Positions 2,777-37,985 of a stretch of 37,985 nucleotides of DNA are shown here, piece by piece. Numbering within the stretch: position 1 is the first letter of the stretch; every line of letters starts with the position of its first letter. A program made the translations under genes and the position numbers. The DNA comes from a virus (lineage: Duplodnaviria > Heunggongvirae > Uroviricota > Caudoviricetes): the IMG/VR virus record IMGVR_UViG_3300014614_000024, positions 1 to 37,985 of that record. One strand, 5' to 3'. The notes below the pieces were generated by a model. That model saw only the letters and a list, made by a program, of their open reading frames with translations. It was not told the DNA's origin and ran no database searches.

Positions 2777-2855
2777 TTGCCTGAAATTTATGCCATTTAA
2801 AATCATGACGTTAGAAGCACTGTTTTTTAACGATGGCGACAAAATGGCGGCAGCA

Positions 2856-3074: not shown

Positions 3075-3164
3075 TTTTCGAGTTCTCCCCATTTTTGCTA
3101 AATTCACAATAATGATACCGCATTATTCCATTTTGCAAACTTAAAAGTTCTCCATTGCGAAGAA

Positions 3165-4747: not shown

Positions 4748-7700
4748 GCGTCGTATCCCCCCTGATCGCTGTAGTTACTCCTGGCTTTTGCCTTCAGCCT
4801 GCGTTCACGTTCATCAAGCTGGCGGGCCACCTCCCGCGCAATATCCTGCGCACTTTGTCCTGGCTGTGTCTGGATGATGATCTGCGTCGGTGCTTCAATC
4901 CGGTAAACAGGCGGCACAGTGGCTGCGCGACTCACAATTGCTTCACCGCCTTTCGCGGGAAGCGCCAAAGGATGCAACGGTGGAAGCTCTGCTGGCGCGG
5001 CAGCAACACCCATCATTCCGGCGACAACGGCAGCCAGTGCAGCTGTATTTCTCCGGCTAGTCACGTTTGCCGGGCCGTTAACAATTTCCGGCCCGTTTTC
5101 ACCGACGATGCCAAACTGCCCACGCGGGATATAGCCGCCGCTGTCATACATCCCCGCAAAGCCATATCCCCATGACGGAAAACCACCCGATGGAATCATC
5201 ACTTTACCGTCTGCATTCACCGTCGCAGGTTGCTGACGCGTCACGCTTTCCGGCAGTTTTGCCTTTGCGGCCTCTTTACTGACAATGCCGAGCTTCTCCA
5301 GCAACCAGGAAACGCCGGATTTCAGGGAGTCCAGCGGATGCATGACCATATTCAGCCCTTCCGCCAGTGCCTCCCCGAATCTCCGCCCCATTGCCGCTGC
5401 ACTCTGCAGTTCGGCAGAGGTCGACTTAATGGGCGTCAGCAGATCAGTAAACCAGCCCCACAGCGCCTGTACTTTATCGCCAATCCACTGGAACACGGGC
5501 TTAAGCGGTTCGAATGCTGCACTGACGGGACCTGCCGCCGCTTTGAATCCTTCCACCACGCCACCAAGAAATGCGGTGATGGGTTGCCAGTATTTCCACA
5601 CAACCAGCGCCACGCCCGCCAGTGCAGTAACCACAAGACCTATCGGACTGAGCAGAGTACCTAACAGACCAGATACGGCATACAGGGCAACGCGCAGCAT
5701 CGCCAGTGGACCAGATGCCAGTACTCGCAGCACCGTGCCTGCGGCGGCCAGTCCACCGCGCTGTACCGCCAGAGGATTCATAAACATCACAGCAACAGCA
5801 CGTAAACCGGATAATCCAGACTGCAAAAGTGCAACCGGCGCACCTGCTACAGTTTTCAGGACATTTCCCGTCAGTGATGCCGTGCGGCGCAAAGACGACA
5901 ACGGCGCAGTAAGTAAACCCGCTGCGTTGCCCGATGAAGCAAGCCCGCGTCGCAGCAGTGCCAGTGGAGCGCCAGCTAACCAGGACAACGCGCTGCTGGT
6001 TCGTGTTACTGCTGCCGTAACGGAAGGTAACGTTTTGATACCCAGCACAGAGAATCCCAGACGGATGACTGCCAGCGGCCCCAGCACTGCAGCCAGCGCC
6101 ACCGCTAAGGTGCCGAGGCCTACGGTAACCGCAGCCATAACAGCCGCTACTTTCATCAGTGTGCCTGTCAGTTCCGGGTTAGCTTCCACCCAGCGGCGCA
6201 ACGCCCCCGTGATGCCTTTCACCGTGTACAGAATATCCATCAGCGGCTGGCGCAGCGTTTCGCCCAGGCTGCTGAAGGTGTTCTGCGTTCCGGTTTTGAC
6301 CAGCAACCACTGAGCGGAAAGTGAGTCTTTGTTGATGTCGGATTCTTTCTGCATGGAACCGAGCGCATCATTGCCCGCTGTCAGTTTTAGCTGGCGCTGC
6401 AGTTCCGGAAGGTTGTTTGCCAGTTTCGCCGCATCATCACCAAACTCTTTACCAAACAACATGGTCATGGCAGACAGACGCTTGTCCTGCGGCAGTGCGT
6501 TCACCTTCTCCAGCACACGCTGGATAGTTCCCATCGCATCCTTCGTCATCTGCTTTTCAATCACTTCAGGATTGAGTTTCAGCAGATTCATCCCTTCAAA
6601 AAAACTCTTGCTCTGCATGGTGGCAATGGATAATTCACGCACCATCGCGTTTGCTGCACTGGCAGCAACCTCCGGCGCAGCGCCCAGTGTCAGGAAGGTG
6701 GAACCCAGCGCCGCCGCTTTACGATAATCCAGACGGTCAGCCACACCGCCCAGGCGTTGCATGACATCAATGATGTCCGCCCCTTTCGACATGGCGTTAT
6801 CATCCAGATAGTTCAGCGCATCACCAAGCTGTTCAATATTGCGGGTAGGGATTTTGTAGAGCTGGGCGATTTTCCCCAGACTTTCTGACAGTTCATCCGC
6901 TGGCAGCTCAAAGGCTGTTGCCGCCTTTGCAGCCGTACTGGCGAAGGCCAGCAGGTCACGTTTCTGGTCTTCCCAGCTGTCGTCAGGGTTTGCGACGTTC
7001 ATGCGCGCACCACCTTCAACCAGTGCAACGAAGTCCACCGCACCGTTTTCCATCGGCAACTGTTCGCTGGCAGCCTTGATGGCATCCTGCATTTCATAAA
7101 AACGTGCAGTGCGGTTGCCATTATCGTCACGCAGACCATTGACCTGCTTTGCCACACCTTTCATGGCATCTTCCATGCTGGTATAGCTTTTTACTGCCGC
7201 CATCACTGGCGTCCCCATTGCCAGCCCTGCAGCCGTGGTAGTGGCTCCAGCTCCTGCAATACGATCGCGCACATCCAGCGAACGGGCATAACTGGCACGC
7301 GCCGCATTCATCCTGCGCTGAGCTTCACCCAGTCGCTTCAGCCGCGCCTCCTGTTTCGACAATTCCTGGTTATAACGTGATGTTTCACGGGCTAAACGGG
7401 CAGTTGCTCCCGCATCGTCTTTCGCAGAAATTCCCGCCCGGTACAGTTCAGCACGCACAAGCGCCGTTTGCTTCTGCAAGTATTTTTGTTGTTCTTCCAG
7501 GCGTTGGACTGCCAGTGTTTGCCGACCTAAAGCCACAAGGTGCCGTTGTGATGGTTGTTCCATCGCCTCCAGCTCAGAGCTAAGCAAATTAGCCTTCTGT
7601 CTGGCATAGTTCAGCCTGTCGCCTAACTTCTTGTTATCGGCCTGCAGCTTGCGAAATTTTTCCAGGCTGTTACCCGCCTGATTGAGTTGCTTTAATGCGT

Positions 7701-20715: not shown

Positions 20716-22482
20716 ATGAACACCACACTGACACCCGCAGATCTCGATCCCCGTCGGCAGGCCATGCTGCTGTACTTTCAGGGATACCGCGTAGCCCGCA
20801 TTGCTGAAATGCTGGGCGAGAAAGTTGCAACCGTTCACAGCTGGAAAAAACGCGACAAGTGGGGTGACTATGGGCCGCTGGATCAGATGCAGCTCACCAC
20901 CGCCGCACGCTACTGCCAGCTCATTATGAAGGAGCACAAAGAAGGGAAAGATTTCAAAGAAATTGACCTGCTGGCGCGCCAGTCGGAGCGCCACGCGCGG
21001 ATCGGCAAGTTTAACAATGGCGGCAACGAAGCCGACTTAAACCCTAACGTCGCCAACCGCAACAAAGGCCCGCGCCGTCAGCCGGAAAAGAATGTTTTCA
21101 CCGATGAACAGATAGAGAAACTGGAAGAAATCTTCCATTCCTCCATGTTCAACTACCAGCGCCACTGGTGGGAAGCCGGAAAAACCAACCGCATCCGCAA
21201 CCTGCTGAAGTCACGCCAGATCGGCGCGACCTTTTACTTTGCCCGTGAAGCCCTGATTGACGCCCTGCTTACCGGACGTAACCAGATTTTCCTTTCTGCC
21301 AGTAAGGCACAGGCTCACGTCTTTAAGCAGTACATCATCGACTTCGCCAAAGAAGTCGAGGTGGAGCTGAAAGGCGATCCGATGGTGCTTCCTAACGGGG
21401 CCACGCTTTACTTCCTCGGCACCAATGCCCGCACGGCGCAGAGTTACCACGGCAACCTGTATCTGGATGAATATTTCTGGATACCGAAATTCCAGGAGTT
21501 GCGCAAAGTGGCTTCCGGTATGGCTATTCACAAGAAATGGCGACAAACCTATTTTTCCACGCCATCCAGCCTGACCCACAGTGCTTATCCGTTCTGGTCC
21601 GGTGCGCTGTTCAACCGTGGACGCAACAAAGCTGACAAGGTGGACATCGACCTGTCCCACAGCAATCTGGCCCCCGGCCTACTGTGCGCAGACGGGCAAT
21701 ACCGCCAGATAGTCACCGTGGAAGATGCGGTGCGCGGCGGCTGTAACCTGTTCGACCTCGACCAGCTGCGCATGGAGTACAGCCCGGACGAATACCAGAA
21801 CCTGCTGATGTGCGAGTTCGTGGACGATCTCGCGTCCGTGTTCCCGCTCAGCGAACTGCAGGCGTGCATGGTGGACAGCTGGGAAGTCTGGACCGACTTT
21901 CATGCACTGGCCCTGCGCCCGTTTGGCTGGCGCGAAGTGTGGATCGGTTATGACCCGGCAAAAGGTACGCAGAACGGCGACAGTGCCGGATGCGTGGTGG
22001 TGGCTCCGCCAGCCGTGCCGGGTGGTAAGTTCCGCATTCTTGAGCGTCACCAGTGGCGCGGGATGGACTTCCGCGCCCAGGCTGACGCCATCAAAAAACT
22101 GACCGAACAGTATAACGTGACCTATATCGGTATCGACTCGACCGGCGTCGGTCACGGGGTTTACGAGAACGTGAAAGCGTTTTTTCCTGCCGTCAGGGAG
22201 TTTGTCTATAACCCCAACGTTAAAAACGCCCTGGTACTCAAGGCCTACGACATTATCAGCCACCGCCGTCTGGAGTTTGACGCCGGGCACACCGACATTG
22301 CGCAGTCATTTATGGCAATCCGTCGCGCTACCACTGCCAGTGGCAACCGCCCGACCTATGAAGCCAGCCGCAGCGAAGAAGCCAGCCATGCCGATCTGGC
22401 CTGGGCAACAATGCACGCACTGTTTAACGAACCGCTGCAGGGCGAGTCCGCCAATACCAGCAATATTGTGGAGATTTTTTGA
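20716..22482 (+). CDS. P: terminase ATPase (large) subunit P
   Basis: 588 aa, P2 gpP-like; divergent from O as in P2. Confidence 0.9.
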   Translation: MNTTLTPADLDPRRQAMLLYFQGYRVARIAEMLGEKVATVHSWKKRDKWGDYGPLDQMQLTTAARYCQLIMKEHKEGKDFKEIDLLARQSERHARIGKFNNGGNEADLNPNVANRNKGPRRQPEKNVFTDEQIEKLEEIFHSSMFNYQRHWWEAGKTNRIRNLLKSRQIGATFYFAREALIDALLTGRNQIFLSASKAQAHVFKQYIIDFAKEVEVELKGDPMVLPNGATLYFLGTNARTAQSYHGNLYLDEYFWIPKFQELRKVASGMAIHKKWRQTYFSTPSSLTHSAYPFWSGALFNRGRNKADKVDIDLSHSNLAPGLLCADGQYRQIVTVEDAVRGGCNLFDLDQLRMEYSPDEYQNLLMCEFVDDLASVFPLSELQACMVDSWEVWTDFHALALRPFGWREVWIGYDPAKGTQNGDSAGCVVVAPPAVPGGKFRILERHQWRGMDFRAQADAIKKLTEQYNVTYIGIDSTGVGHGVYENVKAFFPAVREFVYNPNVKNALVLKAYDIISHRRLEFDAGHTDIAQSFMAIRRATTASGNRPTYEASRSEEASHADLAWATMHALFNEPLQGESANTSNIVEIF

Positions 22483-23519
22483 TGGGAAAGAGTAAGAAGA
22501 ACCGCGCTGCGTCGACGAAACAGATCCAGCATAAAAGCCAGACTTCAGCCGAAGCATTCAGCTTCGGTGATCCCGTTCCTGTTCTGGACCGCCGCGAACT
22601 GCTGGACTATGTGGAATGCGTACAGATGGATCGTTGGTACGAGCCGCCTGTGAGTTTCGACGGACTGGCGCGAACCTTCCGCGCCGCCGTGCATCACAGC
22701 TCACCGATTGCAGTGAAGTGCAACATTCTGACCAGCACCTACATCCCTCACCCGCTGCTCAGCCAGCAGGCTTTTTCGCGTTTTGTACAGGACTATCTGG
22801 TTTTTGGTAACGCCTACCTGGAGAAACGCACGAACCGCTTCGGTGAAGTTATCGCCCTTGAGCCTGCACTGGCAAAATACACCCGACGCGGGTTAGACCT
22901 TGATACCTACTGGTTTGTGCAATACGGCATGACTACGCAGCCGTATCAGTTCACGAAAGGCAACATTTTTCATCTGATGGAACCGGACATCAACCAGGAG
23001 ATCTACGGCCTGCCTGGTTATCTTTCTGCCATTCCGTCAGCTCTGCTCAACGAGTCCGCCACGCTGTTCCGCCGCAAGTATTACATTAACGGCAGTCATG
23101 CAGGCTTCATCATGTACATGACCGATGCAGCGCAGAACCAGGAGGATGTGAACAACCTCCGCAATGCGATGAAAAGCGCCAAAGGTCCTGGTAACTTCCG
23201 TAACCTGTTTATGTACTCGCCTAACGGTAAAAAGGACGGGCTTCAGATTATCCCGTTGTCAGAAGTGGCGGCGAAGGATGAGTTCCTGAATATCAAGAAC
23301 GTGAGCCGGGACGACATGATGGCGGCGCATCGTGTGCCGCCACAAATGATGGGGATAATGCCTAATAATGTCGGGGGGTTTGGGGATGTGGAGAAGGCCA
23401 GCCGTGTATTCGTCCGAAATGAGCTAATGCCACTACAAAAGCGATTACAGGAGATGAATGATTGGCTTGGCAAGGAGGCGATACAGTTTAATACCTACTC
23501 GCTAGATATAGTCCCATAA
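22479..23519 (+). CDS. Q: portal protein Q
   Basis: 346 aa, P2 gpQ-like; 4-bp overlap with P. Confidence 0.9.
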   Translation: MMGKSKKNRAASTKQIQHKSQTSAEAFSFGDPVPVLDRRELLDYVECVQMDRWYEPPVSFDGLARTFRAAVHHSSPIAVKCNILTSTYIPHPLLSQQAFSRFVQDYLVFGNAYLEKRTNRFGEVIALEPALAKYTRRGLDLDTYWFVQYGMTTQPYQFTKGNIFHLMEPDINQEIYGLPGYLSAIPSALLNESATLFRRKYYINGSHAGFIMYMTDAAQNQEDVNNLRNAMKSAKGPGNFRNLFMYSPNGKKDGLQIIPLSEVAAKDEFLNIKNVSRDDMMAAHRVPPQMMGIMPNNVGGFGDVEKASRVFVRNELMPLQKRLQEMNDWLGKEAIQFNTYSLDIVP

Positions 23520-23553: not shown

Positions 23554-24294
23554 TTACTCAATAGGTTCAAACTCATCCTGAGGAATCAGCGTCGATTGAC
23601 AGGCTTGGCTTAGTACTCCTGATAATTTACATAATAACCGATAGTTATGAGGAGCATCATCGCTAATCTTTTCGACCGTTAAAGTGATTGATTTTGGATC
23701 ATCCAATAACATCTTCTTGATATCATTACTTAAATACCTAGGGCAGTAACCAACGATTTCAGCTGGTTTATCTGCACGAACGACAACAGCATCCCCATCG
23801 TATTCATTTTGAAGATCCAAGCAAAGACGCAAAATTTGCCCCGGTTTCAATTCAGATACACGAGCATTAGCTAAGCTATTTAAGTAACCAAGTCCATGTA
23901 AGAAGAAAAAATGCTCAAAGTTACCATCAGAATCAACATCAATTTTTTTGAAAATCTGCAGCTGATCAGTGCTTCGTAAGCCTCCCGAGCGAGCAAGAAT
24001 ATCGATAGGATTTACCTTATCTTCTTCAAATCCAAGCCATTTAATGAAACTCGGATACTCTGGACGTCTCGGTGATAAAAGGCGATTTTTAAAAAGAGGA
24101 AACAATTCTTCCGAAACATAAGTTTCACGAACATCACTCATGCCGCTAAACTTTGTAAATTTAGTAGATTTAAGAGCACCTTTGGTATACCTGAAAACAT
24201 ACCCCGATTTGCGCTCTTGCAAGTTACCAACAACATGCCAGTCTCTGGTATCTGGTGCCTGCCATGCGACGTAAACGGAGTTTGTATTAGTCAT
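23554..24294 (-). CDS. HIRAN-domain protein (cargo; second gene of a two-gene operon)
   Basis: 246 aa; C-terminal segment LRLCLDLQNEYDGDAVVVRADKPAEIVGYCPRYLSNDIKKMLLD fits the HIRAN signature (N.yD..A..V...G.IGY.PR) as I recall it; ATG overlaps the upstream stop (ATGA); AT-rich. Confidence 0.6.
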   Translation of the reverse strand: MTNTNSVYVAWQAPDTRDWHVVGNLQERKSGYVFRYTKGALKSTKFTKFSGMSDVRETYVSEELFPLFKNRLLSPRRPEYPSFIKWLGFEEDKVNPIDILARSGGLRSTDQLQIFKKIDVDSDGNFEHFFFLHGLGYLNSLANARVSELKPGQILRLCLDLQNEYDGDAVVVRADKPAEIVGYCPRYLSNDIKKMLLDDPKSITLTVEKISDDAPHNYRLLCKLSGVLSQACQSTLIPQDEFEPIE

Positions 24295-25205
24295 TCTAGT
24301 AACCTTCTGCGATTTTCCATTACCATTAACGTTGCAAATCTACGTGCACTGTCGGATATACACGATGAAGGCACTTGGTTAAACACATCTGTAATGGAAT
24401 CTTCTGTTAAAACGCTCAACTTACCTAACCAATGGTCGCGAGCGGCAACTCTCCCTTCAACTGCATGTTGAAATGCTTCAACGGTCAGCAAGGGCTTTTT
24501 ATCAGTTTTTGCTTTGAATAGCTCAGAGCGAGCTTTTCTTACAAAACATGGGATTTGTCGATTTTTATCTTTAGTATTAAGCCGTTCGTTACGCTCATCA
24601 TCTAACATCTCCCTTCCTAAACTAGCGGCATGATCGTATGTTGGACACAAAAACTGCTCACCAGTTTCATTGTTAAGCATGATCGCCCAATTTTCATGAT
24701 GGCGATCTTGATTACTCACAAGTGCATCGAGCATCAAAAATCCACAAAATACATCTGCTGCATTTAGCCCGGTTAGATCATATACACTCGGAGGAGGCTT
24801 GATAGATTCCCTATCTAAACAACCCAATACCCTTGTGACAGTGTGTTCTCTGACCCTTACCGGCTTTTCCCCGGCTTGTAAAGGCCCTGGATAATCGAAT
24901 GTCGAACTGTGAAGCACTTCATTTCCCATTACCATCCGGAAACCAGATGGAATGATATTCTGAGTCACCACACCGAATCGACCATTGTATCGCGCCAAAT
25001 CATAGCTAGCATGTGGAATGTTAAGCAAATGACATAACTCAGCAGCACACTTTTCAGACCAATGCTCGCCAGTACCTGGCCTAGAGTACTTAAACAACTG
25101 CAAATTTACAGTGTCATCGGAGAAATAGAACCAAAACTTCTCTTTGGTTCCTAACTGTTCAAGATCGTTAGCTACGGGGCTAAGCTCTACCAATTGGTAT
25201 GGCAT
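24291..25205 (-). CDS. HipA-like Ser/Thr kinase core (short form, lacks the HipA N-terminal subdomains)
   Basis: 304 aa; motifs GTKEKF (compare HipA G.QEK), SNQDRHHENW (catalytic loop D.H..N) and LCPTYD (compare HipA LAPAYD); AGGGA upstream of the ATG at 25205. Confidence 0.65.
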   Translation of the reverse strand: MPYQLVELSPVANDLEQLGTKEKFWFYFSDDTVNLQLFKYSRPGTGEHWSEKCAAELCHLLNIPHASYDLARYNGRFGVVTQNIIPSGFRMVMGNEVLHSSTFDYPGPLQAGEKPVRVREHTVTRVLGCLDRESIKPPPSVYDLTGLNAADVFCGFLMLDALVSNQDRHHENWAIMLNNETGEQFLCPTYDHAASLGREMLDDERNERLNTKDKNRQIPCFVRKARSELFKAKTDKKPLLTVEAFQHAVEGRVAARDHWLGKLSVLTEDSITDVFNQVPSSCISDSARRFATLMVMENRRRLLE

Positions 25206-25350
25206 CTGACATCCCTGTTTAGCGGATTATGAATAAGTTAGGTTCCATTTTATCCAAACATTGTCAAATACTCTAAGATTTATTAGATGATAGAGCGATA
25301 CTGTATGCATGTCCAGCAATCAAATCAATATATAACTCTTATATGACTTA

Positions 25351-25380
25351 GCGCGCGCTCGTATCCCCGCCACGCCTGCC
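25351..25380 (-). other. putative cos site (cohesive-end region)
   Basis: minus-strand GGCGTGGCGGGGA (plus 25365-25376 ccccgccacgcc) matches the first 13 nt of the 186/P2 cohesive end as I recall it; lies in the only large non-coding gap between Q and A; flanked by repeated TCATGC motifs. Confidence 0.35.
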
Positions 25381-25867
25381 CGCTTTATGCAGTGGTTTTC
25401 ATGCACCTGCATGACATGAGTAAAAGCTCGCCAGTTCTAGCAGGTCTCTGCAAAAACGATCCTCAATCGATCATGCGATTTCATGCAGCATAGTCATGCA
25501 CAGCCAAGGGAAGCGTAAATCCGTATCTGAATGACCGCTGAAAAGCGAATCATACGGGTTTACAAAGATGAAAGTCCGCTGTGAGTGAAAAGCGGACATT
25601 AACTCCTTGCTTTTTGGCACTGAAACAGAGCGAAGCAGCATGTAAGCTGTTACGGATGCGCAGCGGTGACAACAGCAACTTCAATTAAGGAAATGCTCTT
25701 GGTTTTCGGGGAGACTTTTCGAGCGATATATGATAATGAAGACACTAAAAAACTGAACAGAAACGTCTAGCTCAATATGACTTCTGTTCAGGTATAAATG
25801 GTCTATTTATATATTCTCTCTTCAAATCCTTACTGAATACTCTCGAAGATGGCTAACGCCCCCTCTC

Positions 25868-26830
25868 TTAACCTTCATAGTTCATGCCGCCAAGATACGA
25901 AGGTATCATCATTAATGATTTAACCCTTTCTTTTTCTTTTTCGGTGAGATGACGACATGCAAATGGGTAAATATTGATCAAAAATGTCTTGAGTTCGTCA
26001 AATGCCTCATCTGAATATAGGGTCCCAGATCTTAACTCATTCATTATTGTCATGACCCATTTTATAAACACAGTTGGCATCATTACATCAGCTATATCTT
26101 CCCAGCCATCAATAAGGCCATTGTTTGTTTGTTTTCTAACATACTGCCGGAGTGCTTGGTCGCAGTTGCCTCGACACGTCCAAAAAATATGTTCATTATA
26201 CTCTGGTTCTTTTTCGTAGTCGGTGCGGATTCTTTGCCATATAGTGATAATTCCCTTGTCGTCTTGAGACAGAAGCTCTTTCTTGCAAACTTTGCATTTT
26301 AAGCTAGGTTCATCGGAAAATATTCTTGCGGGTTTGGGGTTTTCTGTTTTCCACTCAGATAACGACTTTGGGAAGTACCTTTCGGCAATTTCCAATCCTC
26401 TGGAAGAGTGTAAAAGTTCCCTCTCTATTTTCTCTTTATCGAAAACCTGAAATTCAATTCGTCCTTTCAACCCGTCAAGTATTCCAGACAGACCTGCACT
26501 AGCAAGAGTTGAATAGAACCCGATAAATCCTTGGCAGTTATTCGCTATTACTCGATCAGTAATATTTGCATCATCTCCTGGATTAACTGAATTTCCACTA
26601 TGAGCTTTATGCTTACAGCTTACCAACCAACGGATAATTGTTTCCCCGCCGACACCAGTCCTTTTTTCTTCGGCTATAATATCAACCCCACCGTCAGCCC
26701 CTCTATCTGGGTCAGATATAATTTTATATCCCAGAAAAGCTAAGAAGTCGCGAGAAAAAAGTTCAAATGTGTCTTGCAGCCCTGTTGCTTTATGAGCCTC
26801 TGGTATTTCTTTGAAGTCTAATACTGGCAT
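25868..26830 (-). CDS. Mrr-cat-like PD-(D/E)xK nuclease domain fused to a Cys-rich (CxxC...CxxxC) C-terminal domain; cargo
   Basis: 320 aa; N-terminal GADGGVDIIAEE...LVSCKHK resembles the restriction-endonuclease (Mrr catalytic) core; C-terminal CKVCKK...CRGNC; AT-rich; own divergent promoter region. Confidence 0.5.
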   Translation of the reverse strand: MPVLDFKEIPEAHKATGLQDTFELFSRDFLAFLGYKIISDPDRGADGGVDIIAEEKRTGVGGETIIRWLVSCKHKAHSGNSVNPGDDANITDRVIANNCQGFIGFYSTLASAGLSGILDGLKGRIEFQVFDKEKIERELLHSSRGLEIAERYFPKSLSEWKTENPKPARIFSDEPSLKCKVCKKELLSQDDKGIITIWQRIRTDYEKEPEYNEHIFWTCRGNCDQALRQYVRKQTNNGLIDGWEDIADVMMPTVFIKWVMTIMNELRSGTLYSDEAFDELKTFLINIYPFACRHLTEKEKERVKSLMMIPSYLGGMNYEG

Positions 26831-27112
26831 TTTTATGGGGTCCTTAAGTTGTTAATGCTTATTGGGTGGAAAGAACCGTATTTAAACACGGAGTTTCTGC
26901 CTCTGTAAATTTAATATGTAGAACACTCATCACTTTTTATAACTGACAATAGGATATTTAGACGTCTGTTTTTGGCACAAAGCAGACAAAAAACTGAAGG
27001 CCCACTGTGAACGAGAAACGGACTATGATACTAACAAGAGAGCATCACTGTTAATATTTGAACAATTAATGCTCAGCTATTTATCTATTTTTACAATTAG
27101 AAAGGACTTGTA

Positions 27113-27523
27113 ATGGTTACGGTTGATGAATTAAAGATGAAATATCCGGACGCGAATGCCTGGCAAATGGGCGACAGCCCTGAACTGGCTAACGAGCTTG
27201 CAGCGCTTATCAAAAAAGGAATTAAAACGGCCTCCTGCGGCTCTTATGCCTCTTACCAGAAGGAAGAGTTTGCCCCAAGGATTGGGAGCTATAACATCAT
27301 CCTTAACGGCCAAGATGTACCGGTATACGTGACCCGGCTGGTGTCGATGCGACTGGTGCGTTTTTGTGATGTTACTGCCGAGTTCGCTCGCAAGGAAGGT
27401 GAAGGCGATTTGAGTCTTGAATATTGGCAGAGAGAGCATCAACGATTTTTTACATGTGAAGGTTACTTTTCTGATGATATGGAGCTGATTATGGAAGAGT
27501 TTGAAGTTGTTGATGTTTTGTAA
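27113..27523 (+). CDS. ASCH (PUA-like) domain protein; cargo
   Basis: 136 aa; resembles the YqfB/ASCH family by eye (IKKGIKTAS..., ...AEFARKEGEGD...); AAAGGA 6 nt upstream of the ATG. Confidence 0.55.
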   Translation: MVTVDELKMKYPDANAWQMGDSPELANELAALIKKGIKTASCGSYASYQKEEFAPRIGSYNIILNGQDVPVYVTRLVSMRLVRFCDVTAEFARKEGEGDLSLEYWQREHQRFFTCEGYFSDDMELIMEEFEVVDVL

Positions 27524-28299: not shown

Positions 28300-30672
28300 T
28301 TAATACAGGTTCCGCCACTTATCATCTTCCTGCAAACGCTGGTTCCGATAGAAGATACGCAGGCCTGCTCCTGACGGAATACTGCCGCCGCGAAGGAGTA
28401 AATCGACCTCTTTCTCGCTACCATCAAATCCTCTGGACTTCAGCTCATAGACGAGCTGCAGTCGCTGATGGTCTGTAATTCGCTGTTTGTAGTCTTTACG
28501 CCGTTTCGGTTTAACCAGGCGTAACCTTGCAGCCAGTTCCCGGCGCTCTTTTTTGCTCATACTGTGCAGGTAATCGTGCAACTCCTTGTCATCCATGCGG
28601 GTAATGTCCGTTCTGATGTCCCCATCAGCTGATTTATCTTTCTCCTGTTGGTTCAAATTTTCAGCAAGGGGACAGTTATTGCCACGAGTCCAAGGGGCGC
28701 AAGCGCCCTGGTCGGCTGCCGCCTCCTGAACGTCAACGGCCTTACGAACCATTTTCCACTTCACGGCATGAGTGCAGATCTTGCCCTCTGCAATAGGTGA
28801 CCAGATGCCATAAATACGAATGCCGTGATCGCCATAGGCGGTCGGCTCTTCGTTGATTTCATAAGCAGTTCTGATGAGGTGATATTTGCGGGGAACCAGT
28901 ACGCCACCCTGCTTCATGATGTAGGTGGCAAAACAACCAGCATCAGCAGCAGCCAGAATGGCATCAAGGCGCGGGTTATCCAGTACCGGCGCACCTGCTT
29001 TTTTGTCCCCCTGTTGCCTTGCCGCCTGACCAGCCAGCAATCGCAGTTCACGGTAAGCCTGACGCCCCGGAATGCCAAAGAAGCGGAATTGCTGAACACG
29101 ATGCAGAGACGCCCAGGCATTAACGTATTCAGCATTATCACGCAGGGATTTCCCCGTTTCCTTGCTGATCTCGCCAGCCAGACCACGCCCGTCAATGTTC
29201 TTACTGATGTATTTCGCGATGTAGCTTGTTGGCGTACCTTTGCGCGGGTTAATCAACTCAGACTTAAAGCGCGGCCCAGTGTTATTGCCCAGCTCCTCGC
29301 GGTCTTCACGGATGGCAAACTTACGCAGTAATGCAGTGATGGTGCGGCGGTCTTTTTTGCGCATAAAACACAACAGGTGCCAGTGAACTGTACCGTCATG
29401 ATGCGGCTCAGCCACCCGCACGCCATACCACCGCAATCCGGCTTTGTGCATCGCCTTACGAAATGCAGCAAACATGCCGACCAGATAATCACTGCTTTGT
29501 CTTACCGTCGCATTTGTCCAGGTTGGGTTGGGCCTGCCGTTATTTAGCGTGGAATGGAAACGTGACGGACAGGTGATGGTGTAGAAAACGGCGCAGTCAC
29601 CGCGCATTTCCGCGATAAGCTCCAGACCTTTAACACAGGCCATCATCTCATTGCGGCGATGCGCAGGGTTGCTGCTGCTGGCGTTTACCACATCCTCCAT
29701 GTCCAGCGTGTCGCCGTCTTCGTTCACCAGTTCATGAGAACGGAAAAACTCCAGCGACTTACGGCGCTGCTCACGTTTATGCATCACGGCTTCATAGCTG
29801 ACATAGGGAGATGCTTTTTTGCTGACCAGGCAAACAGCACGCAACTGCTCTTCCCGCCATTCGCAACGCATCTTCCATAATTTCCGGTACCACCAGTCGG
29901 CGCACAACATACGCGCCAGCGAACCCGGAATGAGTTCATAGGGCACGGGTTTACGGCGGTTTCTTTTCCGGCGGAGTTGCTCAAACGCAGGCGGTATGAC
30001 ATCCAGTCGCAGGGTTTCTGCTGCCACCTTTTCCCATGTCTTGCGGATTTCTTCTGGCTTAACGTCATCGGTGGCATACAAATCGCCACAAGCTGCATCA
30101 AGGCACATGCTCATATGCGCAGCAACAAGGGTGGACAGGCGTTTCACCTGATCCTGACTCATTTCAGGCAGAATCAGCAGGCCGTCCAGCCCTTCATGGC
30201 TTGCCATAAAGCGAAAAGAAGTGGATAGCTGACTGTCGCGCACATGCTCCAGCCGTTCCAGACATGGCTTAATCGTCTCACGCAAATAGCGGGAATAAGC
30301 CTTTGGCCTGCCAAGGCTGCTGAAGTATTCAATACGTTGCATCAGCGGCTTGCTGATATGGGAAGGCTGGGCATTGACGTCCGCCAGAATGACCATATCT
30401 GGATTAAAACGCTGCTGCTCATGCGCCAGCTTTGCCCGACTAATGAGCTTATCCTGCTCCATTTCGCGCTGTACAGGATCACGGGATTCATTAAAGAAAT
30501 AACGCTCCCAGACCTGATCACTCAGTACCTCGCGGCGCAGGTGTTCCTGCTCGTTATCGGCAGCGTACAGAGCGATCAGGTTTGAAAGCGCAGAAACTGA
30601 AGATTGCTCTTCTGTCTCTACGTAAGGATTGATTGCTTTTTTCTCAGCATTCCAGGAATAGCTGTAGTTCAT
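28300..30672 (-). CDS. A: replication initiation endonuclease A (rolling-circle HUH Rep)
   Basis: 790 aa; HUH motif HWHLL and two-tyrosine motif YIAKYISK; same position as P2/186 gene A. Confidence 0.85.
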
Positions 30673-31502
30673 TACGCAATCTCCAGTTCGAGCTGTGAAG
30701 GCTGCAAACCATTCGACAGCCAGTCAGAAACTGAAGGTGGGCGAACAGCTTCAATTGCACCTTTTAAAATTGCGCAACGGTTTTTCAGAATGACAGCTTT
30801 CAGCTCCTTTTCCGTCAGATTGCGCGAATACTCAGCCTCCTGAATAGCCCGCGTAAGCTCAGGATATTTGCTATTAAATTTGGGGACATTGCAGGCAAGA
30901 TTTGTACTGTCGGCAGTCGCCAGTGGGTAATTTCCCAACACACGACCGTCAAGCATGCGCAAACCATGAACAGCTGTTTTGAAATTGTGTCGGCAATAAA
31001 TTGCTTCAAAAGCGTCCTGCATACGACGATGCCAGTGCGCAGTTCTAATAGCCGCATATTCACCAGACGATCCAAAGCAGACACGAGGCCATTCACGACA
31101 TAGCTCGATAAGCCGATCGATTGACTCGTGCAGATGCCAGACGGGAGTTGCCTTCCCGTAGAACATTTTCGGAACTTCGTTTATCAGGGCATCATTGTCA
31201 CGTTCACCTCCGTCCACAACATCAGGAATGACAAAAAAAGCGACCTTAGGATGGTGGTAATAGTTCAGGAGCCATTTATAAAAATCATTCCAGTTAATTT
31301 TTAGCCCACGCACCCATGCAGAAAATGCGCCGTTATCAATGCCAACGACCTGGGCGTGCTGAATGGACGCCGCAATCTGATCTGGTCGTACATAGGAGAC
31401 GAAAGCACCAGCTCCGCTCACCGCAATACGATGAACGTCGCCAGCACTTCCCCAGACAGGCGTCCCATGGAAATGATGAATTCCGTGGTGCATTTCTTTC
31501 AC
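30672..31502 (-). CDS. hypothetical protein translationally coupled to dam
   Basis: 276 aa; GTG start overlaps the dam stop (GTGA); His-rich N-terminus; no family recognised. Confidence 0.5.
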
Positions 31503-32353
31503 ACTTGCACCCCGAAAATAACAGTAGAGTCACGTCCCCTACTAAAATCGGCACTAAACCAATTAGCAGATTTAGTGGCAATCATCTCTGTTGCAAATTT
31601 TCCCTCCCCCGCTGCAACGCCGATGCTGCGTTTCGCCCTGATGTAGTGGTGAGTGAAATTACGATAAAGAGACCGGGTCAAAGACGTGTCACTGTTAGAA
31701 ACAATGACCGGATGTCCTTCAGATGCTCGATGTTCAAGAACGGATGCCAGGTGATACTGGTCATCTTCAGTGAAACCATCAGTGTGATAGCCGGAAAACG
31801 TACCGTCATACGGCGGATCGCAATACACCACATCCCCCGCCTTCAACATCGCCAGCGTTTCATCAAAGCTGGCGCAGATAAACGTTGCTCGCTGGGCCTT
31901 TTCTGCAAATGCGCGAATTTCTTTTTCAGGGAAATACGGATTTTTATAATTACCGTAGGGAATGTTGAAATGCCCGCTCTTGTTATAGCGACATAAACCA
32001 CGGTAACCGTGACGATTGAGATACAGGAAATATACCGCTCTCATGAAATCAGTAATTTCAGTTGAGTAATTAAACTCCTGCCTTATGTTGTAATAAGCCA
32101 CCTCCCTGTTTGCGATCTCAAATAAAACTCTGGCGCGAGATATAAACGATTCACAATCAGCGGCAACCTTTTTATAGAGGTTGATTAAATCAGGATTAAT
32201 ATCCGCAACCAGATAGCTGGGATAATCCGTCTCCATCATCACAGCACAGGAACCCGCGAAAGGTTCAACCAGTCGCGGGCCAGCAGGAAGATGTTTTTTC
32301 AGTTCGGACATTATGGCAGTTTTATTTCCCGCCCATTTCAGGATGGTGCTCAT
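31499..32353 (-). CDS. dam: DNA adenine methyltransferase (Dam-like)
   Basis: start at internal ATG 32353; [23 protein letters not shown] and DPPY motifs closely parallel E. coli Dam; ATGA overlap with the upstream gene. Confidence 0.88.
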
Positions 32354-34220: not shown

Positions 34221-34249
34221 AGAATAGGTTCGCATAAAGAATATGTCAA
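34221..34249 (-). promoter_or_regulatory. candidate early lytic promoter pR (TTGACA-17-TATTCT)
   Basis: -35 TTGACA at 34249-34244 overlaps the cI start codon; -10 TATTCT at 34226-34221; transcribes toward apl. Confidence 0.45.
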
Positions 34250-35184
34250 CTAATAAAATCACATTTCGCCATATTGAAGATCATCTGAAAGCCATGGTCA
34301 TGCAGAATCGAGGAGGGCAAAAAGTCATTGAGAGAATACTCATGGCCTATGGTTTCAAATCACGCCAAGCATTCTGTAACCACCTTGGTATTTCACAAAG
34401 TACAATGGCTAACAGATATGCACGCGATACCTTCCCTGCTGATTGGGTTGTTATATGTTCAATGGAAACTGGCGCATCAATCGAATGGTTAGCATTTGGT
34501 TTAGATGCTGAAGAAGGAGTGCCAGCTCCTTCGCCAGAACGGCATGCTGAAAAACAGTCTGCAGATGAATTTTGCAATGAAGTTCACACCCCCACGATAA
34601 AGTTCGATAATGAAAACCACATGGATTTCACTCGAGGGGGTAAAGCAGCAATAGAGCGAATTGTTAAGGCTTACGGTTACAAAACGCGCCAAGCCTTAGC
34701 CGATCACCTTGGTATCTCAAAAAGCACATTAGCTACACGATACATGCGAGACATTTTTCCGGCAGACTGGATCATCCAATGCTGTTTAGAAACAGGAGTG
34801 TCTCTCGAGTGGTTATCTTTTGGTAAGGGGCATTCCAATCAAACAAAGCTAAGTGGGTTGCTTACATTAGACTGCTATGATCTACGTGACGGCAAACTTA
34901 CTGATCAAAGAGAATTAATCGTTTCGAGCGAAATTTTACCTCAAAATTTAAAACATCCCTATATAGTTAATTCCGCAAATGATTCATATATCATTAGCAA
35001 AGAGGAGTATCTTAGCGATGGTCTATGGTTAGTATCTATTAACGGAGAATTTACTTTTAGAGACATATTTAAACTTCCAAACAATCGCATCCGCGTTGAA
35101 AACACAAAATATAGCTTTGAATGCGATAAAGAAGATTTGGAATTTAATAATAAAGTTAAAGGAATAATTAGAAAAAGGGTTTAA
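34243..35184 (+). CDS. cI: CI-like immunity repressor (186 type) with duplicated N-terminal DNA-binding domain
   Basis: 313 aa; residues ~24-90 and ~132-198 are paralogous (GGQKVIERILMAYGFKSRQAF.NHLGISQSTMANRYARDTFPADW... versus GGKAAIERIVKAYGYKTRQALADHLGISKSTLATRYMRDIFPADW...), both like the 186 CI N-terminal domain; C-terminus (SDGLWLV...FKLP...FEC) like the 186 CI oligomerisation domain. Confidence 0.7.
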   Translation: MSTNKITFRHIEDHLKAMVMQNRGGQKVIERILMAYGFKSRQAFCNHLGISQSTMANRYARDTFPADWVVICSMETGASIEWLAFGLDAEEGVPAPSPERHAEKQSADEFCNEVHTPTIKFDNENHMDFTRGGKAAIERIVKAYGYKTRQALADHLGISKSTLATRYMRDIFPADWIIQCCLETGVSLEWLSFGKGHSNQTKLSGLLTLDCYDLRDGKLTDQRELIVSSEILPQNLKHPYIVNSANDSYIISKEEYLSDGLWLVSINGEFTFRDIFKLPNNRIRVENTKYSFECDKEDLEFNNKVKGIIRKRV

Positions 35185-35186
35185 CA

Positions 35187-36236
35187 ATGAGCTTTACGAA
35201 AACTATTGAATTTGCAAACTATACCTTAAATTTTGGAGAGGACAAAGTTCTCTTAGATGCTTTTGATTGCATTGTTTTTCCTTCATTTTTCGCACAAAAA
35301 TACGTTAGAAAATTTAAAGATACAGAATATTTCTTTACTGACACAAAAATTATTACGTTAGATACTACAGATTCAGATTTTATTGGTCCTATAGTTCCAA
35401 CAATTGCATTGTGTGGCCGCATTATAAAAAAGACCATATTTAAACGAGATCAAATATTTCAAGATGGTCAATTAATTCGAGATCACAGGACGCTAGAAAG
35501 TCACCCCAGCTCTATTTTTATTCTTATGCTTAATGAGCACAGATTAATGCTTTGCAAAGAGGTTTCTGGAGCCCCTACCCTAGAAGAATTTGAAAATACT
35601 AGCAAGTATTGCCTTGCACAGCGATATAATTCTTTTGTGGATTACGAAGTAAAAAAAAATAAAAGAATTAGAAAGAAAAAATCATACATTGATCGACTGT
35701 ATAAAAAAGATATTTATCGTAAACTAGGAGCCCCCAAATTACGGGTTACCCCCTTAACAGACCCAAGATCATTGAGCAATTTTGTTGAACTCTTTTCTGT
35801 TGTTAATAGATTATCAATTGAGTTATTGCCAACAAATAGTGAAAATATATCTCTTGATGGCTTCTGGAGGAAAATTGAACAAGAAAAAGAAGAACTTAAT
35901 AGTAGTAAAGCTCAATTAGTATACACAAATAAAAATGAAGATGGTTTAAATTCTGAGGCCGTCATTCAAAAAACAACAAGTGCAACCCGAATGGCCAACT
36001 CTAAAGTAATTATAAGTGGTAAAGATGAACACGGAGCAAGGCTATCAGGGAATAATGATAGTTTTACTCTAAAAGCATCAAGGCCACAACTTAGTTCTGA
36101 TTTGGAAAGAGCTGCTCAAGAGGCGTATTCTGCATTCACAGAATTAAAGGATGCAGGAAATATTATTATTCCAGAACGTGAAGATTATACTAAAATTTTT
36201 TCCAAGTTAACATCAATAATTTCTAGGTGGCTATAG
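35187..36236 (+). CDS. hypothetical soluble protein (cargo; first gene of a Rex-like pair)
   Basis: 349 aa, very AT-rich and Lys/Asn-rich; starts 3 nt after the cI stop; no family recognised. Confidence 0.5.
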   Translation: MSFTKTIEFANYTLNFGEDKVLLDAFDCIVFPSFFAQKYVRKFKDTEYFFTDTKIITLDTTDSDFIGPIVPTIALCGRIIKKTIFKRDQIFQDGQLIRDHRTLESHPSSIFILMLNEHRLMLCKEVSGAPTLEEFENTSKYCLAQRYNSFVDYEVKKNKRIRKKKSYIDRLYKKDIYRKLGAPKLRVTPLTDPRSLSNFVELFSVVNRLSIELLPTNSENISLDGFWRKIEQEKEELNSSKAQLVYTNKNEDGLNSEAVIQKTTSATRMANSKVIISGKDEHGARLSGNNDSFTLKASRPQLSSDLERAAQEAYSAFTELKDAGNIIIPEREDYTKIFSKLTSIISRWL

Positions 36237-36237
36237 T

Positions 36238-36843
36238 ATGAAATATACATTCAACCCAGAAGATCTGACCAAAGAGCGATCTTTGCATGATGTTTACAAA
36301 TTAACTAAAAAAATAAAGGTCAATTCATTTGACTTTTATTTCACATTATTATTAGTGATATTATTATCTATTAATGCTTTTTGTCTATCTTCATCACCAG
36401 AGTTAATTTCATCTATTAGACAATGGACACCTTTAGTATTCGGATTCACTACAACAACATTAGGTTTTTTAATTACTGGATTTACAATATTTGCAACCAT
36501 AAATAAACCTGAACTTTTCCTTTCATTAATGGAGTATAAGCATCCATTATACGGGATAAGTTACTTAAAATATGTTTATGGCGTATTTATGAGAGTATTT
36601 ATATATTTCATATTTTGGTCTGTTATCTATCTTTTAGTCCTTCTTTTCGGGCAAGAAAATGGATTGGCTACAAAATTACTCAGAGCCTTAATGTTTTCTC
36701 ATTGCACTAAAGTTGTTGGAGTTCAAATACTATATATACTCGTAGGAAGCAGTGCAGTGTTCCTTGTATTAACTTTAAAAACTTTCCTGTTCAATATTTA
36801 TGCTATGTTAATGCAATCTCTACGCTGGGAAGTAGAAAGATAA
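36238..36843 (+). CDS. hypothetical polytopic membrane protein (cargo; second gene of a Rex-like pair)
   Basis: 201 aa with four long hydrophobic segments; ATG 2 nt after the upstream stop; AGGTGG upstream. Confidence 0.55.
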   Translation: MKYTFNPEDLTKERSLHDVYKLTKKIKVNSFDFYFTLLLVILLSINAFCLSSSPELISSIRQWTPLVFGFTTTTLGFLITGFTIFATINKPELFLSLMEYKHPLYGISYLKYVYGVFMRVFIYFIFWSVIYLLVLLFGQENGLATKLLRALMFSHCTKVVGVQILYILVGSSAVFLVLTLKTFLFNIYAMLMQSLRWEVER

Positions 36844-36932
36844 AATTAACCTCAATGTATGAATCTCAATTCATATACATTGACACTGGTTATACATACA
36901 GTAAAAATGCTCTCCACTGGAGGGCATTTTTT

Positions 36933-37985
36933 ATGGCAGTACGAAAACTCATCACAGGAAAATGGCTATGCGAATGTTACCCCGCGGGACGTAGTGGACG
37001 TCGTGTGCGTAAACAATTCGCCACCAAAGGTGAAGCTCTGGCTTTTGAGCGTCACACGATGGAAGAAACCGAAGCAAAGCCCTGGCTGGGTGAATCAGTG
37101 GATCGTCGAACACTGAAAGACGTGGTTGAGCTATGGTTCAAACTACATGGTAAATCTCTGACAGCTGGGCAGCATGTCTATGACAAATTGCTGTTGATAG
37201 TTGACGCTCTGGGCAATCCCCTTGCAACCGATCTCACCTCTAAAATGTTTGCCCACTATCGAGATAAACGCCTGACAGGAGAGATCTACTTCAGCGAAAA
37301 ATGGAAGAAAGGAGCAAGCCCGGTCACCATTAACCTGGAGCAAAGCTATCTTAGTAGTGTTTTTAGCGAACTATCCCGCCTGGGCGAATGGTCGTATCCG
37401 AACCCACTGGAGAACATGCGAAAATTCACCATCGCTGAAAAAGAGATGGCATGGCTTACCCATGAGCAGATTGTTGAATTACTGGCTGATTGCAAACGTC
37501 AGGACCCAATTCTGGCACTGGTAGTTAAGATATGCTTAAGCACAGGCGCACGCTGGCGAGAAGCCGTAAATCTTACTCGTTCACAGGTGACCAAATACCG
37601 AATTACCTTTGTAAGAACGAAGGGGAAGAAAAACAGAAGCATCCCTATCAGTAAAGAGCTTTACGAAGAGATCATGGCGCTTGATGGGTTCAATTTCTTC
37701 ACAGACTGCTATTTTCAATTTTTATCCGTGATGGAAAAAACGTCTATCGTGCTCCCTCGCGGTCAACTCACACACGTTCTGCGCCATACGTTTGCGGCGC
37801 ACTTCATGATGTCGGGTGGAAACATCCTGGCCTTACAAAAAATTCTCGGACATCACGATATAAAAATGACGATGCGTTACGCACATCTGGCACCGGATCA
37901 TCTGGAAACGGCGCTCCGTTTCAATCCTCTGGCAACGCTGCCAAGTGGCGACAAAGTGGCGGCAGCGGTTGGCATTACCCCGTAA
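36933..37985 (+). CDS. int: tyrosine integrase (P2/186 type)
   Basis: 350 aa from ATG 36933 (MAVRKLITGKW..., compare P2 Int MAIKKLDDGRY...); C-terminal catalytic region with HxxR and Y (VLRHTFAAH...MTMRYAHL); stop codon is the last 3 nt of the window. Confidence 0.85.
   Translation: MAVRKLITGKWLCECYPAGRSGRRVRKQFATKGEALAFERHTMEETEAKPWLGESVDRRTLKDVVELWFKLHGKSLTAGQHVYDKLLLIVDALGNPLATDLTSKMFAHYRDKRLTGEIYFSEKWKKGASPVTINLEQSYLSSVFSELSRLGEWSYPNPLENMRKFTIAEKEMAWLTHEQIVELLADCKRQDPILALVVKICLSTGARWREAVNLTRSQVTKYRITFVRTKGKKNRSIPISKELYEEIMALDGFNFFTDCYFQFLSVMEKTSIVLPRGQLTHVLRHTFAAHFMMSGGNILALQKILGHHDIKMTMRYAHLAPDHLETALRFNPLATLPSGDKVAAAVGITP

What the first reader, a model, noticed from the sequence alone, without database searches (positions are those of the whole stretch)
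35187..36843. Rex-like two-gene module (soluble 349 aa + 4-TM 201 aa) inserted between the repressor gene and int
In 186 and P2 the integrase gene directly follows the repressor gene; here 1.66 kb of very AT-rich DNA encoding two tightly spaced genes sits between them, in the lysogenic transcription unit. One soluble protein plus one four-helix membrane protein, co-transcribed with the repressor, is the same architecture and position as lambda rexA/rexB (established exclusion/abortive-infection system). I recognise no family for either protein. The position and architecture argue for a prophage-expressed exclusion or defence function.
Basis: inference. Interest (0 to 1): 0.78.

Follow-up and report, generated by a model that had tools for sequence, protein, structure and literature searches.

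The report
Rex-type two-gene prophage defence cargo
A P2/186-like prophage carries, between its repressor and integrase genes, a rare two-gene insert whose soluble protein has the fold of phage lambda's RexA and whose partner is a four-helix membrane protein. It is most likely an uncharacterised relative of the classic Rex phage-exclusion system.

The parts
34243..35184 (+). cI immunity repressor (313 aa), first gene of the lysogenic operon. It has two tandem Phage_CI_repr HTH domains plus the CI C-terminal domain.
   Evidence: Pfam PF07022 with 2 stretches (2.5e-57) and PF16452 (1.3e-19). RefSeq calls it 'phage repressor protein CI'. Synteny with the phage 186 pL/pE-cI-int operon.
35187..36236 (+). 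Gene A: a soluble 349-aa protein with a RexA/RdgC-like fold, proposed as the sensor/activator component.
36238..36843 (+). Gene B: a 201-aa inner-membrane protein with four TM helices and an invariant C-terminal motif F.FNIY..M...RWE, proposed as the membrane effector.
   Evidence: Four hydrophobic segments. Helical AF2 model, pLDDT 81. A homologue follows every A homologue within -14 to +6 nt in the 13 genome and metagenome loci, and directly in all 25 others. Invariant columns. dN/dS 0.08.
36875..36908 (+). Conserved block marking the right-hand boundary of the variable slot. It contains a sigma-70-like TTGACA-17-AAAAAT, a possible int promoter.
   Evidence: Alignment of six junction variants converges here. 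Promoter-like site at 36880-36908.
36903..36931 (+). Hairpin plus U-run, an intrinsic-terminator-like element abutting the int ATG. It is the probable end of the cI-A-B transcript.
   Evidence: RNA fold dG = -18.1 kcal/mol, z = -5.9, 0 of 200 shuffles as stable. Present with different stem sequences in the variants with other cargo.
36933..37985 (+). Tyrosine integrase (350 aa), the conserved right flank of the slot.
   Evidence: Pfam Int_N and Phage_integrase. RefSeq annotation gives this start. Found in 1,134 of 5,426 E. coli genomes.

Best explanation
The pair is a RexAB-type two-component abortive-infection or exclusion system carried as accessory cargo in the cI-int hotspot of a 186-like (Peduoviridae) prophage.

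Inferred mechanism, by analogy with lambda RexAB, the actinophage Sbash and CarolAnn systems, and P. putida RexAB-pp:
1. In the lysogen, A and B are made from the repressor transcript (pL -> cI -> A -> B), which ends at the hairpin/U-run just before int.
2. A, a RexA/RdgC-fold protein that is probably dimeric and DNA-binding, stays inactive until a superinfecting phage produces a trigger. The trigger would be a protein or a protein-DNA/replication intermediate.
3. Activated A engages the cytoplasmic face of the 4-TM protein B. B then permeabilises or depolarises the inner membrane, ATP falls, and the infection aborts.

What is shown here: the gene anatomy, the RexA fold of A, the obligate A-B pairing, the cargo status and the defence-rich neighbourhoods. 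What is inferred: expression, the trigger, the A-B interaction, membrane action and any phenotype.

For: Profile alignment: the match to the RexA family is collinear over both domains, but weak (E = 0.011; empirical P about 0.01).

Architecture: a 4-TM partner lies directly downstream in 38 of 38 complete loci across Gamma- and Betaproteobacteria and viral contigs. Gene order repressor -> A -> B matches lambda and CarolAnn.

Operon position: gaps of 2 nt and 1 nt, insertion within what is a single lysogenic operon in phage 186, and a terminator-like hairpin after B.

Cargo status: 11 E. coli genomes carry the pair against 1,134 with the integrase. Sister prophages at the same att site carry PD-Lambda-1 (2e-120) or a 63-aa ORF instead. 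The cI-int junction of P2-related Vibrio prophages is a published defence hotspot.

Neighbourhood: non-prophage copies lie next to Type I R-M (three loci), a restriction-endonuclease domain plus HATPase_c_3, Abi_2, SNF2 plus NOV_C, and a WYL regulator. The pair is AT-rich relative to its flanks nearly everywhere.

Literature: Rex-like pairs with a weak DUF4747 signal confer defence in Sbash, CarolAnn and Butters. 'DUF4747/CarolAnn' is treated as an immune operon class.
Against: There are no experimental data for this pair.

Neither protein matches the Pfam RexA/RexB, DUF4747 or PADLOC Rex models. hhalign to lambda RexA alone and to CarolAnn gp44/gp43 is not significant.

B against a RexB family profile is indistinguishable from shuffled controls, and B has no significant structural match, so a shared effector mechanism is an assumption.

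Even for lambda Rex, the ion-channel model and the natural trigger remain incompletely established. RexA also has a non-defence role in the lysis-lysogeny switch.
Confidence: 0.62

Rival explanations
1. A mainly tunes the prophage's own lysis-lysogeny switch, as lambda RexA does by binding DNA, CI and Cro. Any exclusion would be a by-product, and B would be an accessory or anti-self-exclusion factor.
For: RexA has this documented second role and acts independently of RexB. A lies immediately after cI. The CI C-domain subtype co-varies with the A-B subtype: about 59% identity among carriers of the 77%-identical A, against 33-40% otherwise. A has a strongly basic linker, 15 K/R in residues 132-182.
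Against: At least 15 loci carry the pair with no cI or int homologue nearby, in R-M or Abi neighbourhoods, a filamentous-phage context and a small integrase-flanked island. Such copies have no phage switch to regulate. B is strictly co-conserved. About 99% of prophages with this integrase do without the pair. The CI co-variation can be explained by physical linkage alone.
Confidence: 0.12
2. The pair is a superinfection-exclusion system that blocks DNA entry at the membrane, in the manner of Sie, Sim or the Glo protein of K139, rather than an abortive-infection system. B would be the active blocker and A a cytoplasmic regulator.
For: B is an inner-membrane protein expressed from the lysogenic operon.
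Against: The RexA fold of A links it to systems in which early phage gene expression proceeds and the block comes later (Sbash). An obligate soluble DNA-binding-fold partner is not typical of entry blockers.
Confidence: 0.1
3. The pair is a toxin-antitoxin-like addiction module that stabilises the prophage or island, with B as a membrane toxin held in check by A, and has no primary anti-phage role.
For: It is a two-gene operon with a small membrane protein. It occurs on mobile islands, one of them flanked by integrases and a PIN/PhdYeFM TA pair. RexB-pp is growth-suppressing when activated.
Against: In the P. putida system, over-producing A activates the toxicity of B rather than neutralising it. 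The gene order and sizes are atypical for type I/II TA systems. The neighbourhoods are defence-type.
Confidence: 0.08
4. A is an RdgC-like recombination or replication modulator acting on host or phage DNA metabolism, and the RexA similarity only reflects a shared ancient fold.
Against: Strict pairing with a 4-TM protein (38 of 38 loci) has no counterpart for RdgC. The cargo and defence-island context, AT-rich horizontal-transfer signature and position after the repressor all fit Rex.
Confidence: 0.05

Closest known systems
Phage lambda RexA/RexB exclusion system (Pfam PF15969/PF15968; RexA structure PDB 8TWQ)
   Different: No match to the RexA or RexB HMMs. A is 349 aa against 279 aa, with an extra long helix and basic linker. 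B is 201 aa against 144 aa, with a roughly 30-aa N-terminal cytoplasmic extension and a conserved C-terminal FNIY...RWE motif, and it shows no detectable homology to RexB. The host phage is a P2/186-type, not a lambdoid.
Actinobacteriophage Rex-like defence pairs: CarolAnn gp44/gp43, Sbash gp30/gp31, Butters gp30/gp31 ('DUF4747/CarolAnn' class)
   Same: A soluble protein of about 340-370 aa plus a 4-TM protein of about 165-200 aa, lysogenically expressed. In CarolAnn the pair is co-transcribed directly downstream of the repressor. These systems have experimentally shown defence, and the proposed mechanism is Rex-like. RefSeq labels some copies of A 'DUF4747 family protein'. The best, though non-significant, BFVD match of B is a 165-aa Sbash protein, which is the published length of gp31.
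   Different: hhalign of the A and B family profiles against gp44 and gp43 is not significant. No member of the A family reaches DUF4747 at E <= 1 in the Pfam copy used. The hosts are Proteobacteria rather than Actinobacteria.
Pseudomonas putida prophage P1 RexAB-pp (PP_5643/PP_5644; Sci Rep 2026)
   Different: The terminal residues deduced from primers are not informative. HHpred linked RexA-pp to RexA at 98% probability, whereas my hhalign reached only marginal significance.
Defence hotspots of P2-like prophages (Rousset et al. 2022), including the cI-int hotspot of K139-like Vibrio prophages
   Same: A variable, AT-rich cargo slot between conserved phage genes, holding different defence systems in otherwise similar prophages.
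   Different: The published E. coli P2 hotspots are at other positions. The cI-int hotspot was described for Vibrionaceae, and here it is documented in enterobacterial 186-like prophages integrated next to rcdA/ybjJ.

Membership tests
Lambda RexA family (Pfam PF15969 / PADLOC RexA) | Significant match of the soluble protein to the RexA profile HMM | tested here: not met
   No RexA hit for the window protein or for 21 + 58 family members, while lambda RexA scores 1e-97 in Pfam and 1e-108 in PADLOC. Profile-profile against 25 RexA sequences gives E = 0.011, probability 3.8%, with an empirical P of about 0.01.
Lambda RexA family (fold level) | Two-domain RexA/RdgC-like fold: a split globular domain plus a beta-sheet/helix dimerisation domain | tested here: met
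Lambda RexB family (Pfam PF15968 / PADLOC RexB) | Homology of the membrane protein to RexB | tested here: not met
   No HMM hit. hhalign of a 27-sequence B profile against a 7-sequence RexB profile scores 17.9, equal to the reversed control, and 8 of 100 shuffles reach it.
RexAB-type systems (architecture) | A small four-TM membrane protein encoded immediately downstream of the RexA-like gene | tested here: met
   Four hydrophobic segments and a helical model. The pairing holds in 38 of 38 complete loci.
RexAB-type systems (expression) | Expression in the lysogen, typically co-transcribed with the immunity repressor | not testable with these tools
   The sequence is compatible: 2-nt and 1-nt gaps, insertion inside the operon that in 186 is pL/pE-cI-int, and a terminator-like hairpin after B. 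No RNA data are available.
RexAB-type systems (function) | Exclusion or abortive infection of superinfecting phage through membrane depolarisation or permeabilisation, with A dimeric and binding DNA non-specifically | not testable with these tools
   Known for lambda, Sbash, CarolAnn and P. putida from the literature only.
DUF4747 / CarolAnn-Sbash family | Match of the soluble protein to Pfam PF15931 (DUF4747) | tested here: inconclusive
   No member reaches E <= 1 in this Pfam copy. However, RefSeq names some copies 'DUF4747 family protein', and precomputed tables list PF15931 for 5 of 25 relatives. The published DUF4747 links for RexA, gp30 and gp44 are themselves weak HHpred hits.
DUF4747 / CarolAnn-Sbash family | Sequence homology to CarolAnn gp44 (soluble) and gp43 (membrane) | tested here: not met
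   hhalign E = 0.51 for A and E = 1 for B. tblastn of A against 50,697 phage records finds no actinophage.
Prophage defence hotspot (P2-like cI-int slot) | Different cargo between conserved flanks in related prophages, including known defence systems | tested here: met
   At the same att site with the same integrase, the states seen are cI-63-aa ORF-int, cI-PD-Lambda-1-int, cI-A-B-int and a decayed remnant. The right boundary is sharp. Published precedent in Vibrio.

The most novel reading that the evidence does not exclude
A and B define a large Proteobacteria-wide family of RexAB-type systems, with at least 700 clusters at 50% identity, that current Pfam, PADLOC and Rex models miss. A would be a true divergent homologue of lambda RexA, and B a new family of 4-TM effectors with a conserved cytoplasmic FNIY...RWE tail. 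If so, 'Rex' would not be a lambdoid curiosity but one branch of a widespread sensor-plus-membrane-effector defence superfamily that also covers the actinophage CarolAnn/Sbash pairs, the 'DUF4747' operons next to R-M systems, and possibly P. putida RexAB-pp. A natural E. coli/Klebsiella P2-like prophage would then offer a tractable model for the long-unresolved Rex trigger and channel mechanism.
Probability: 0.45. Interest if true: 0.62.

Novelty: new variant of a known kind. Interest (0 to 1): 0.5.

Why it matters
RexAB was among the first phage-exclusion systems described, yet its trigger and the way RexB acts are still debated, and until recently it looked confined to lambdoid phages. This work shows that a fold homologue of RexA, always paired with a distinct 4-TM protein, is widespread in Proteobacteria and rides in a P2/186-type prophage hotspot that also carries PD-Lambda-1. 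That extends the Rex class, exposes a gap in current defence-annotation tools (no hit in PADLOC 2.0 or in the Pfam copy used), and provides an E. coli/Klebsiella system in which sensor-effector coupling can be dissected. It also documents the cI-int junction of enterobacterial 186-like prophages as a defence cargo slot. The work is incremental rather than conceptually new: the class is known, and similar assignments have already been published (P. putida, 2026).

Tried and rejected
- Pfam, NCBIfam and PADLOC scans of A and B found no family. The only PHROGs hit was phrog_10040, of unknown function, at 3.5e-9.
- Profile searches of A1, A2 and A3 against PDB sequences found nothing meaningful.
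- hhalign of the A profiles against single-sequence lambda RexA and CarolAnn gp44, and of the B profile against RexB and gp43, was not significant.
- Pfam scans of 21 + 58 family members for DUF4747 or RexA gave no matches, so the RefSeq 'DUF4747' label cannot be reproduced at usable thresholds.
- Foldseek of the B model against BFVD gave no significant hit.
- The afdb50 fold library was unavailable.
- The search for related loci with the diverse alignment A3 failed for lack of a conserved stretch. A1 was used instead.
- The listing of cluster members on ten representatives gave no names or taxa.
- Placing P. putida RexAB-pp in the family from primer-derived termini was uninformative.
- The idea that the AT-rich 3' end of cI was imported with the cargo was rejected, because all cI genes of the clade have it.
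- RNAalifold on the int-proximal hairpin was defeated by misalignment. Single-sequence folds were used instead.
- The terminator-like site inside the 5' end of gene A (35236-35254) is regarded as chance: 6 such sites were found against 3.2 +/- 2.0 expected.

Full report
OBSERVATION. The window is a P2/186-like (Peduoviridae) prophage. It is about 99% identical over the cI-int region to Klebsiella phage 4LV2017, and in E. coli it is integrated next to rcdA/ybjJ. ORFs of 349 aa (35187-36236, '+', gene A) and 201 aa (36238-36843, '+', gene B) lie between the CI repressor gene (34243-35184) and the integrase gene. The annotated int start is 36933. The gaps are 2 nt between cI and A and 1 nt between A and B. 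GC content is about 0.31 in the pair against 0.52 in the rest of the window. Both ORFs are real genes. Against orthologues of 75-77% identity, dN/dS is 0.04-0.05 for A and 0.08 for B. In phage 186 itself the cI stop overlaps the int start, and the record annotates one lysogenic operon, pL/pE -> cI -> int -> orf69 -> terminator.

WHAT THE PROTEINS ARE. Neither protein matches any model in Pfam, NCBIfam or PADLOC 2.0. The only family hit is a PHROG of unknown function. RefSeq sometimes names A a 'DUF4747 family protein'. I could not reproduce that label: none of 21 close or 58 diverse family members reaches DUF4747 or RexA at E <= 1.

At sequence level the relationship is marginal. A 58-sequence profile of the A family against a 25-sequence RexA profile gives E = 0.011. 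With a relaxed threshold the alignment is collinear across A 19-323 and RexA 19-264. It pairs PSSxF with FPSxF, E..GAP with T.YGP, and the invariant hairpin GNS.V.L.G.D..G with RexA's SDI.LRAKDEAGD in the dimerisation domain. Only 1 of 120 block-shuffled RexA profiles scores as high. A is about 70 residues longer than RexA, with a long helix (132-164) and a very basic linker (15 K/R in residues 132-182).

B has four hydrophobic segments and an all-helical model with pLDDT 81. The distribution of basic residues suggests N-in/C-in topology. Its C-terminal tail is invariant: K181, F183, F185-N186-I187-Y188, M192, R196-W197-E198. B has no detectable homology to RexB. A 27-sequence against 7-sequence profile comparison equals the reversed control, and 8 of 100 shuffles reach it. 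It also shows no homology to CarolAnn gp43. It has no significant structural match either; the highest-probability BFVD hit, which is not significant, is a 165-aa Sbash protein of the length published for gp31.

THE FAMILY AND ITS CONTEXTS. An exhaustive profile search finds 704 cluster representatives (50% identity clusters) at E <= 1e-3 and 352 at E <= 1e-30. Nearly all are 320-350 aa and match over their full length. In every complete locus I could examine, the A homologue is directly followed by a 201-228-aa B homologue. These loci comprise 13 genome and metagenome loci, 24 IMG/VR viral contigs and one further genome locus. In the first 13, the gaps are -14 to +6 nt, phmmer E-values are 1e-41 to 1e-104, and four hydrophobic segments sit at conserved positions.

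Enterobacterial copies, including A subtypes only about 42-46% identical, mostly occupy the same cI-int slot of 186-like prophages. Two viral contigs place the pair after int, and four have no cI or int homologue nearby. In other Gamma- and Betaproteobacteria the pair lies elsewhere:
- Beside Type I R-M genes in three loci, one of which also has an AAA_13 ATPase.
- Beside a restriction-endonuclease domain protein plus a HATPase_c_3 protein.
- Beside an Abi_2 protein.
- Beside SNF2 plus NOV_C proteins.
- Beside a WYL regulator.
- Beside a Zot gene of a filamentous prophage.
- Beside RHS genes.
- In a mini-island flanked by two integrases and a PIN/PhdYeFM pair.
The pair is AT-rich relative to its flanks nearly everywhere, for example 0.41 against 0.69. 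This is the signature of a horizontally mobile defence cargo. It also matches the 'DUF4747/CarolAnn' operons reported downstream of R-M systems in Acinetobacter.

THE SLOT. The integrase occurs in 1,134 of 5,426 complete E. coli genomes (824 at >= 95% identity), but the A-B pair in only 11. Six sampled genomes and two phage records with the same integrase show four junction states: cI-63-aa ORF-int (four records), cI-558-aa DUF4041 protein-int (three records), a decayed remnant, and the window's cI-A-B-int. The E. coli prophages among them, including phage vB_EcoM-813R9, sit at the same att site. The DUF4041 protein is PD-Lambda-1 (PADLOC, 2e-120), a named anti-phage system. All variants converge about 65 nt upstream of int on a conserved block containing TTGACA-17-AAAAAT. 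It is followed by a stable hairpin plus U-run that abuts the int ATG (window 36903-36931; dG -18.1 kcal/mol, z -5.9). The stem sequence differs between variants but stays paired. Rousset et al. (2022) described the cI-int junction of K139-like P2-related Vibrio prophages as a defence hotspot. The enterobacterial 186-like junction behaves the same way.

MECHANISM (inferred). The best-supported explanation is a RexAB-type abortive-infection or exclusion system. A and B are produced in the lysogen from the repressor transcript. A, probably a DNA-binding dimer like RexA and its homologues, senses a product of superinfection. It then activates B, which damages or depolarises the membrane, as proposed for lambda, Sbash and CarolAnn and as shown by RexA-pp over-expression in P. 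putida. The steps shown here are the anatomy, the fold, the obligate pairing, the cargo status and the defence-type neighbourhoods. Expression, trigger, A-B contact and membrane action are inferred. I considered four rivals: a RexA-like role in the prophage's own switch, an entry-blocking Sie-type function, an addiction module, and an RdgC-like DNA-metabolism role. Each is weakened by the strict A-B pairing and by the many copies with no phage switch nearby.

COMPARISON AND NOVELTY. The pair works like RexAB, and A shares RexA's fold. It still fails the sequence-membership tests for the lambda RexA/RexB families and for the CarolAnn/Sbash proteins, and B is a distinct membrane-protein family. 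PADLOC's Rex models detect lambda's proteins but neither these nor CarolAnn's. No paper in the searchable library mentions these proteins. I therefore classify it as a new, uncharacterised sequence variant of a known kind of system, not a categorically new one. Whether P. putida RexAB-pp, which has similar sizes, belongs to the same sequence family could not be tested.

VERDICT. Function is untested. Interest is moderate at 0.5: a likely widespread, unannotated branch of the Rex class in a tractable host, but conceptually incremental.

Noticed in passing
window 34243-35184 (+): The CI repressor is 313 aa and has two tandem Phage_CI_repr HTH domains before the CI C-terminal domain, whereas sister prophages and phage 186 have 187-203 aa and one HTH. 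Similar long CIs occur at 52% identity in Klebsiella phages ST340-VIM1phi10.2 and ST437-OXA245phi4.2, and CI ORFs of about 290-310 aa precede several of the 42%-identical A-B pairs on viral contigs (L049-L053, L057, L058). The consequence for operator recognition or for the 186-type CI wheel is unknown.
   Followed up: partly
window 23554-27523 (low-GC island between the portal gene at 22479-23519 and replication gene A at 28300-30672): This is a second cargo island. ORFs at 24291-25205 (-) and 23554-24294 (-) match the PADLOC candidate system PDC-M03A (3e-121; weak HipA_C-like) and PDC-M03B (2e-92; HIRAN domain). Next come an Mrr_cat-like nuclease ORF at 25868-26830 (-) and an ASCH-domain ORF at 27113-27523 (+). 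The prophage therefore carries at least two putative defence loci.
   Followed up: partly
window 36875-36935: A conserved promoter-like block (TTGACA-17-AAAAAT) overlaps the 5' arm of a strong hairpin plus U-run that ends at the int ATG. The hairpin persists with different stem sequences in prophages carrying other cargo. It could terminate the cI-cargo transcript, while transcripts starting at the internal promoter would lack the 5' arm and read into int. This is a possible int regulation device that phage 186 lacks, since there cI and int overlap.
   Followed up: partly
window 34870-35184 compared with L005, L009, L010, L022, L024, L027, L003: The CI C-terminal-domain subtype tracks the A-B subtype. 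Identity is about 59% among carriers of the 77%-identical A (window, Kluyvera, Silvania) against 33-40% to all others, while the HTH domains are uniformly 65-76% identical. This may be simple linkage or may reflect a CI-A functional interaction, as reported for lambda RexA and CI.
   Followed up: partly
window ~30498-31508 (-), from the RefSeq annotation of L001: A 'phosphoadenosine phosphosulfate reductase domain-containing protein' gene sits between the replication endonuclease gene and dam in this prophage. It is absent from that position in sampled sister prophages such as L022, where dam directly follows the replication gene. It may be another accessory insertion.
   Followed up: no
E. 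coli hits H57-H68 and H74: In a subset of E. coli genomes the integrase match is split into two pieces spanning 1,405-1,765 bp instead of 1,053 bp, with an extra 'hypothetical protein' annotated. This suggests an insertion of about 350-700 bp within or next to int in those prophages.
   Followed up: no
L042 and L043 (IMG/VR contigs): A-B pairs with 74% identity in A lie downstream of int (order cI-int-A-B) rather than between cI and int, so the cargo can occupy either side of int in related phages.
   Followed up: no
L013 (Vibrio sp. Of7-15), 4044-7643: The A-B pair lies just downstream of a Zot-family gene, on the same strand with one small ORF between. It is therefore apparently carried by a filamentous (inovirus-like) prophage, an unusual vehicle for a Rex-type system.
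   Followed up: no
L014 (Colwelliaceae) 323-7658 and L008 860-7668: The A-B pair sits directly downstream of hsdR, on the same strand, in Type I R-M operons. One operon also holds an AAA_13 ATPase between hsdS and hsdR. This resembles the R-M plus 'DUF4747/CarolAnn' arrangement reported for Acinetobacter capK/capS loci.
   Followed up: partly
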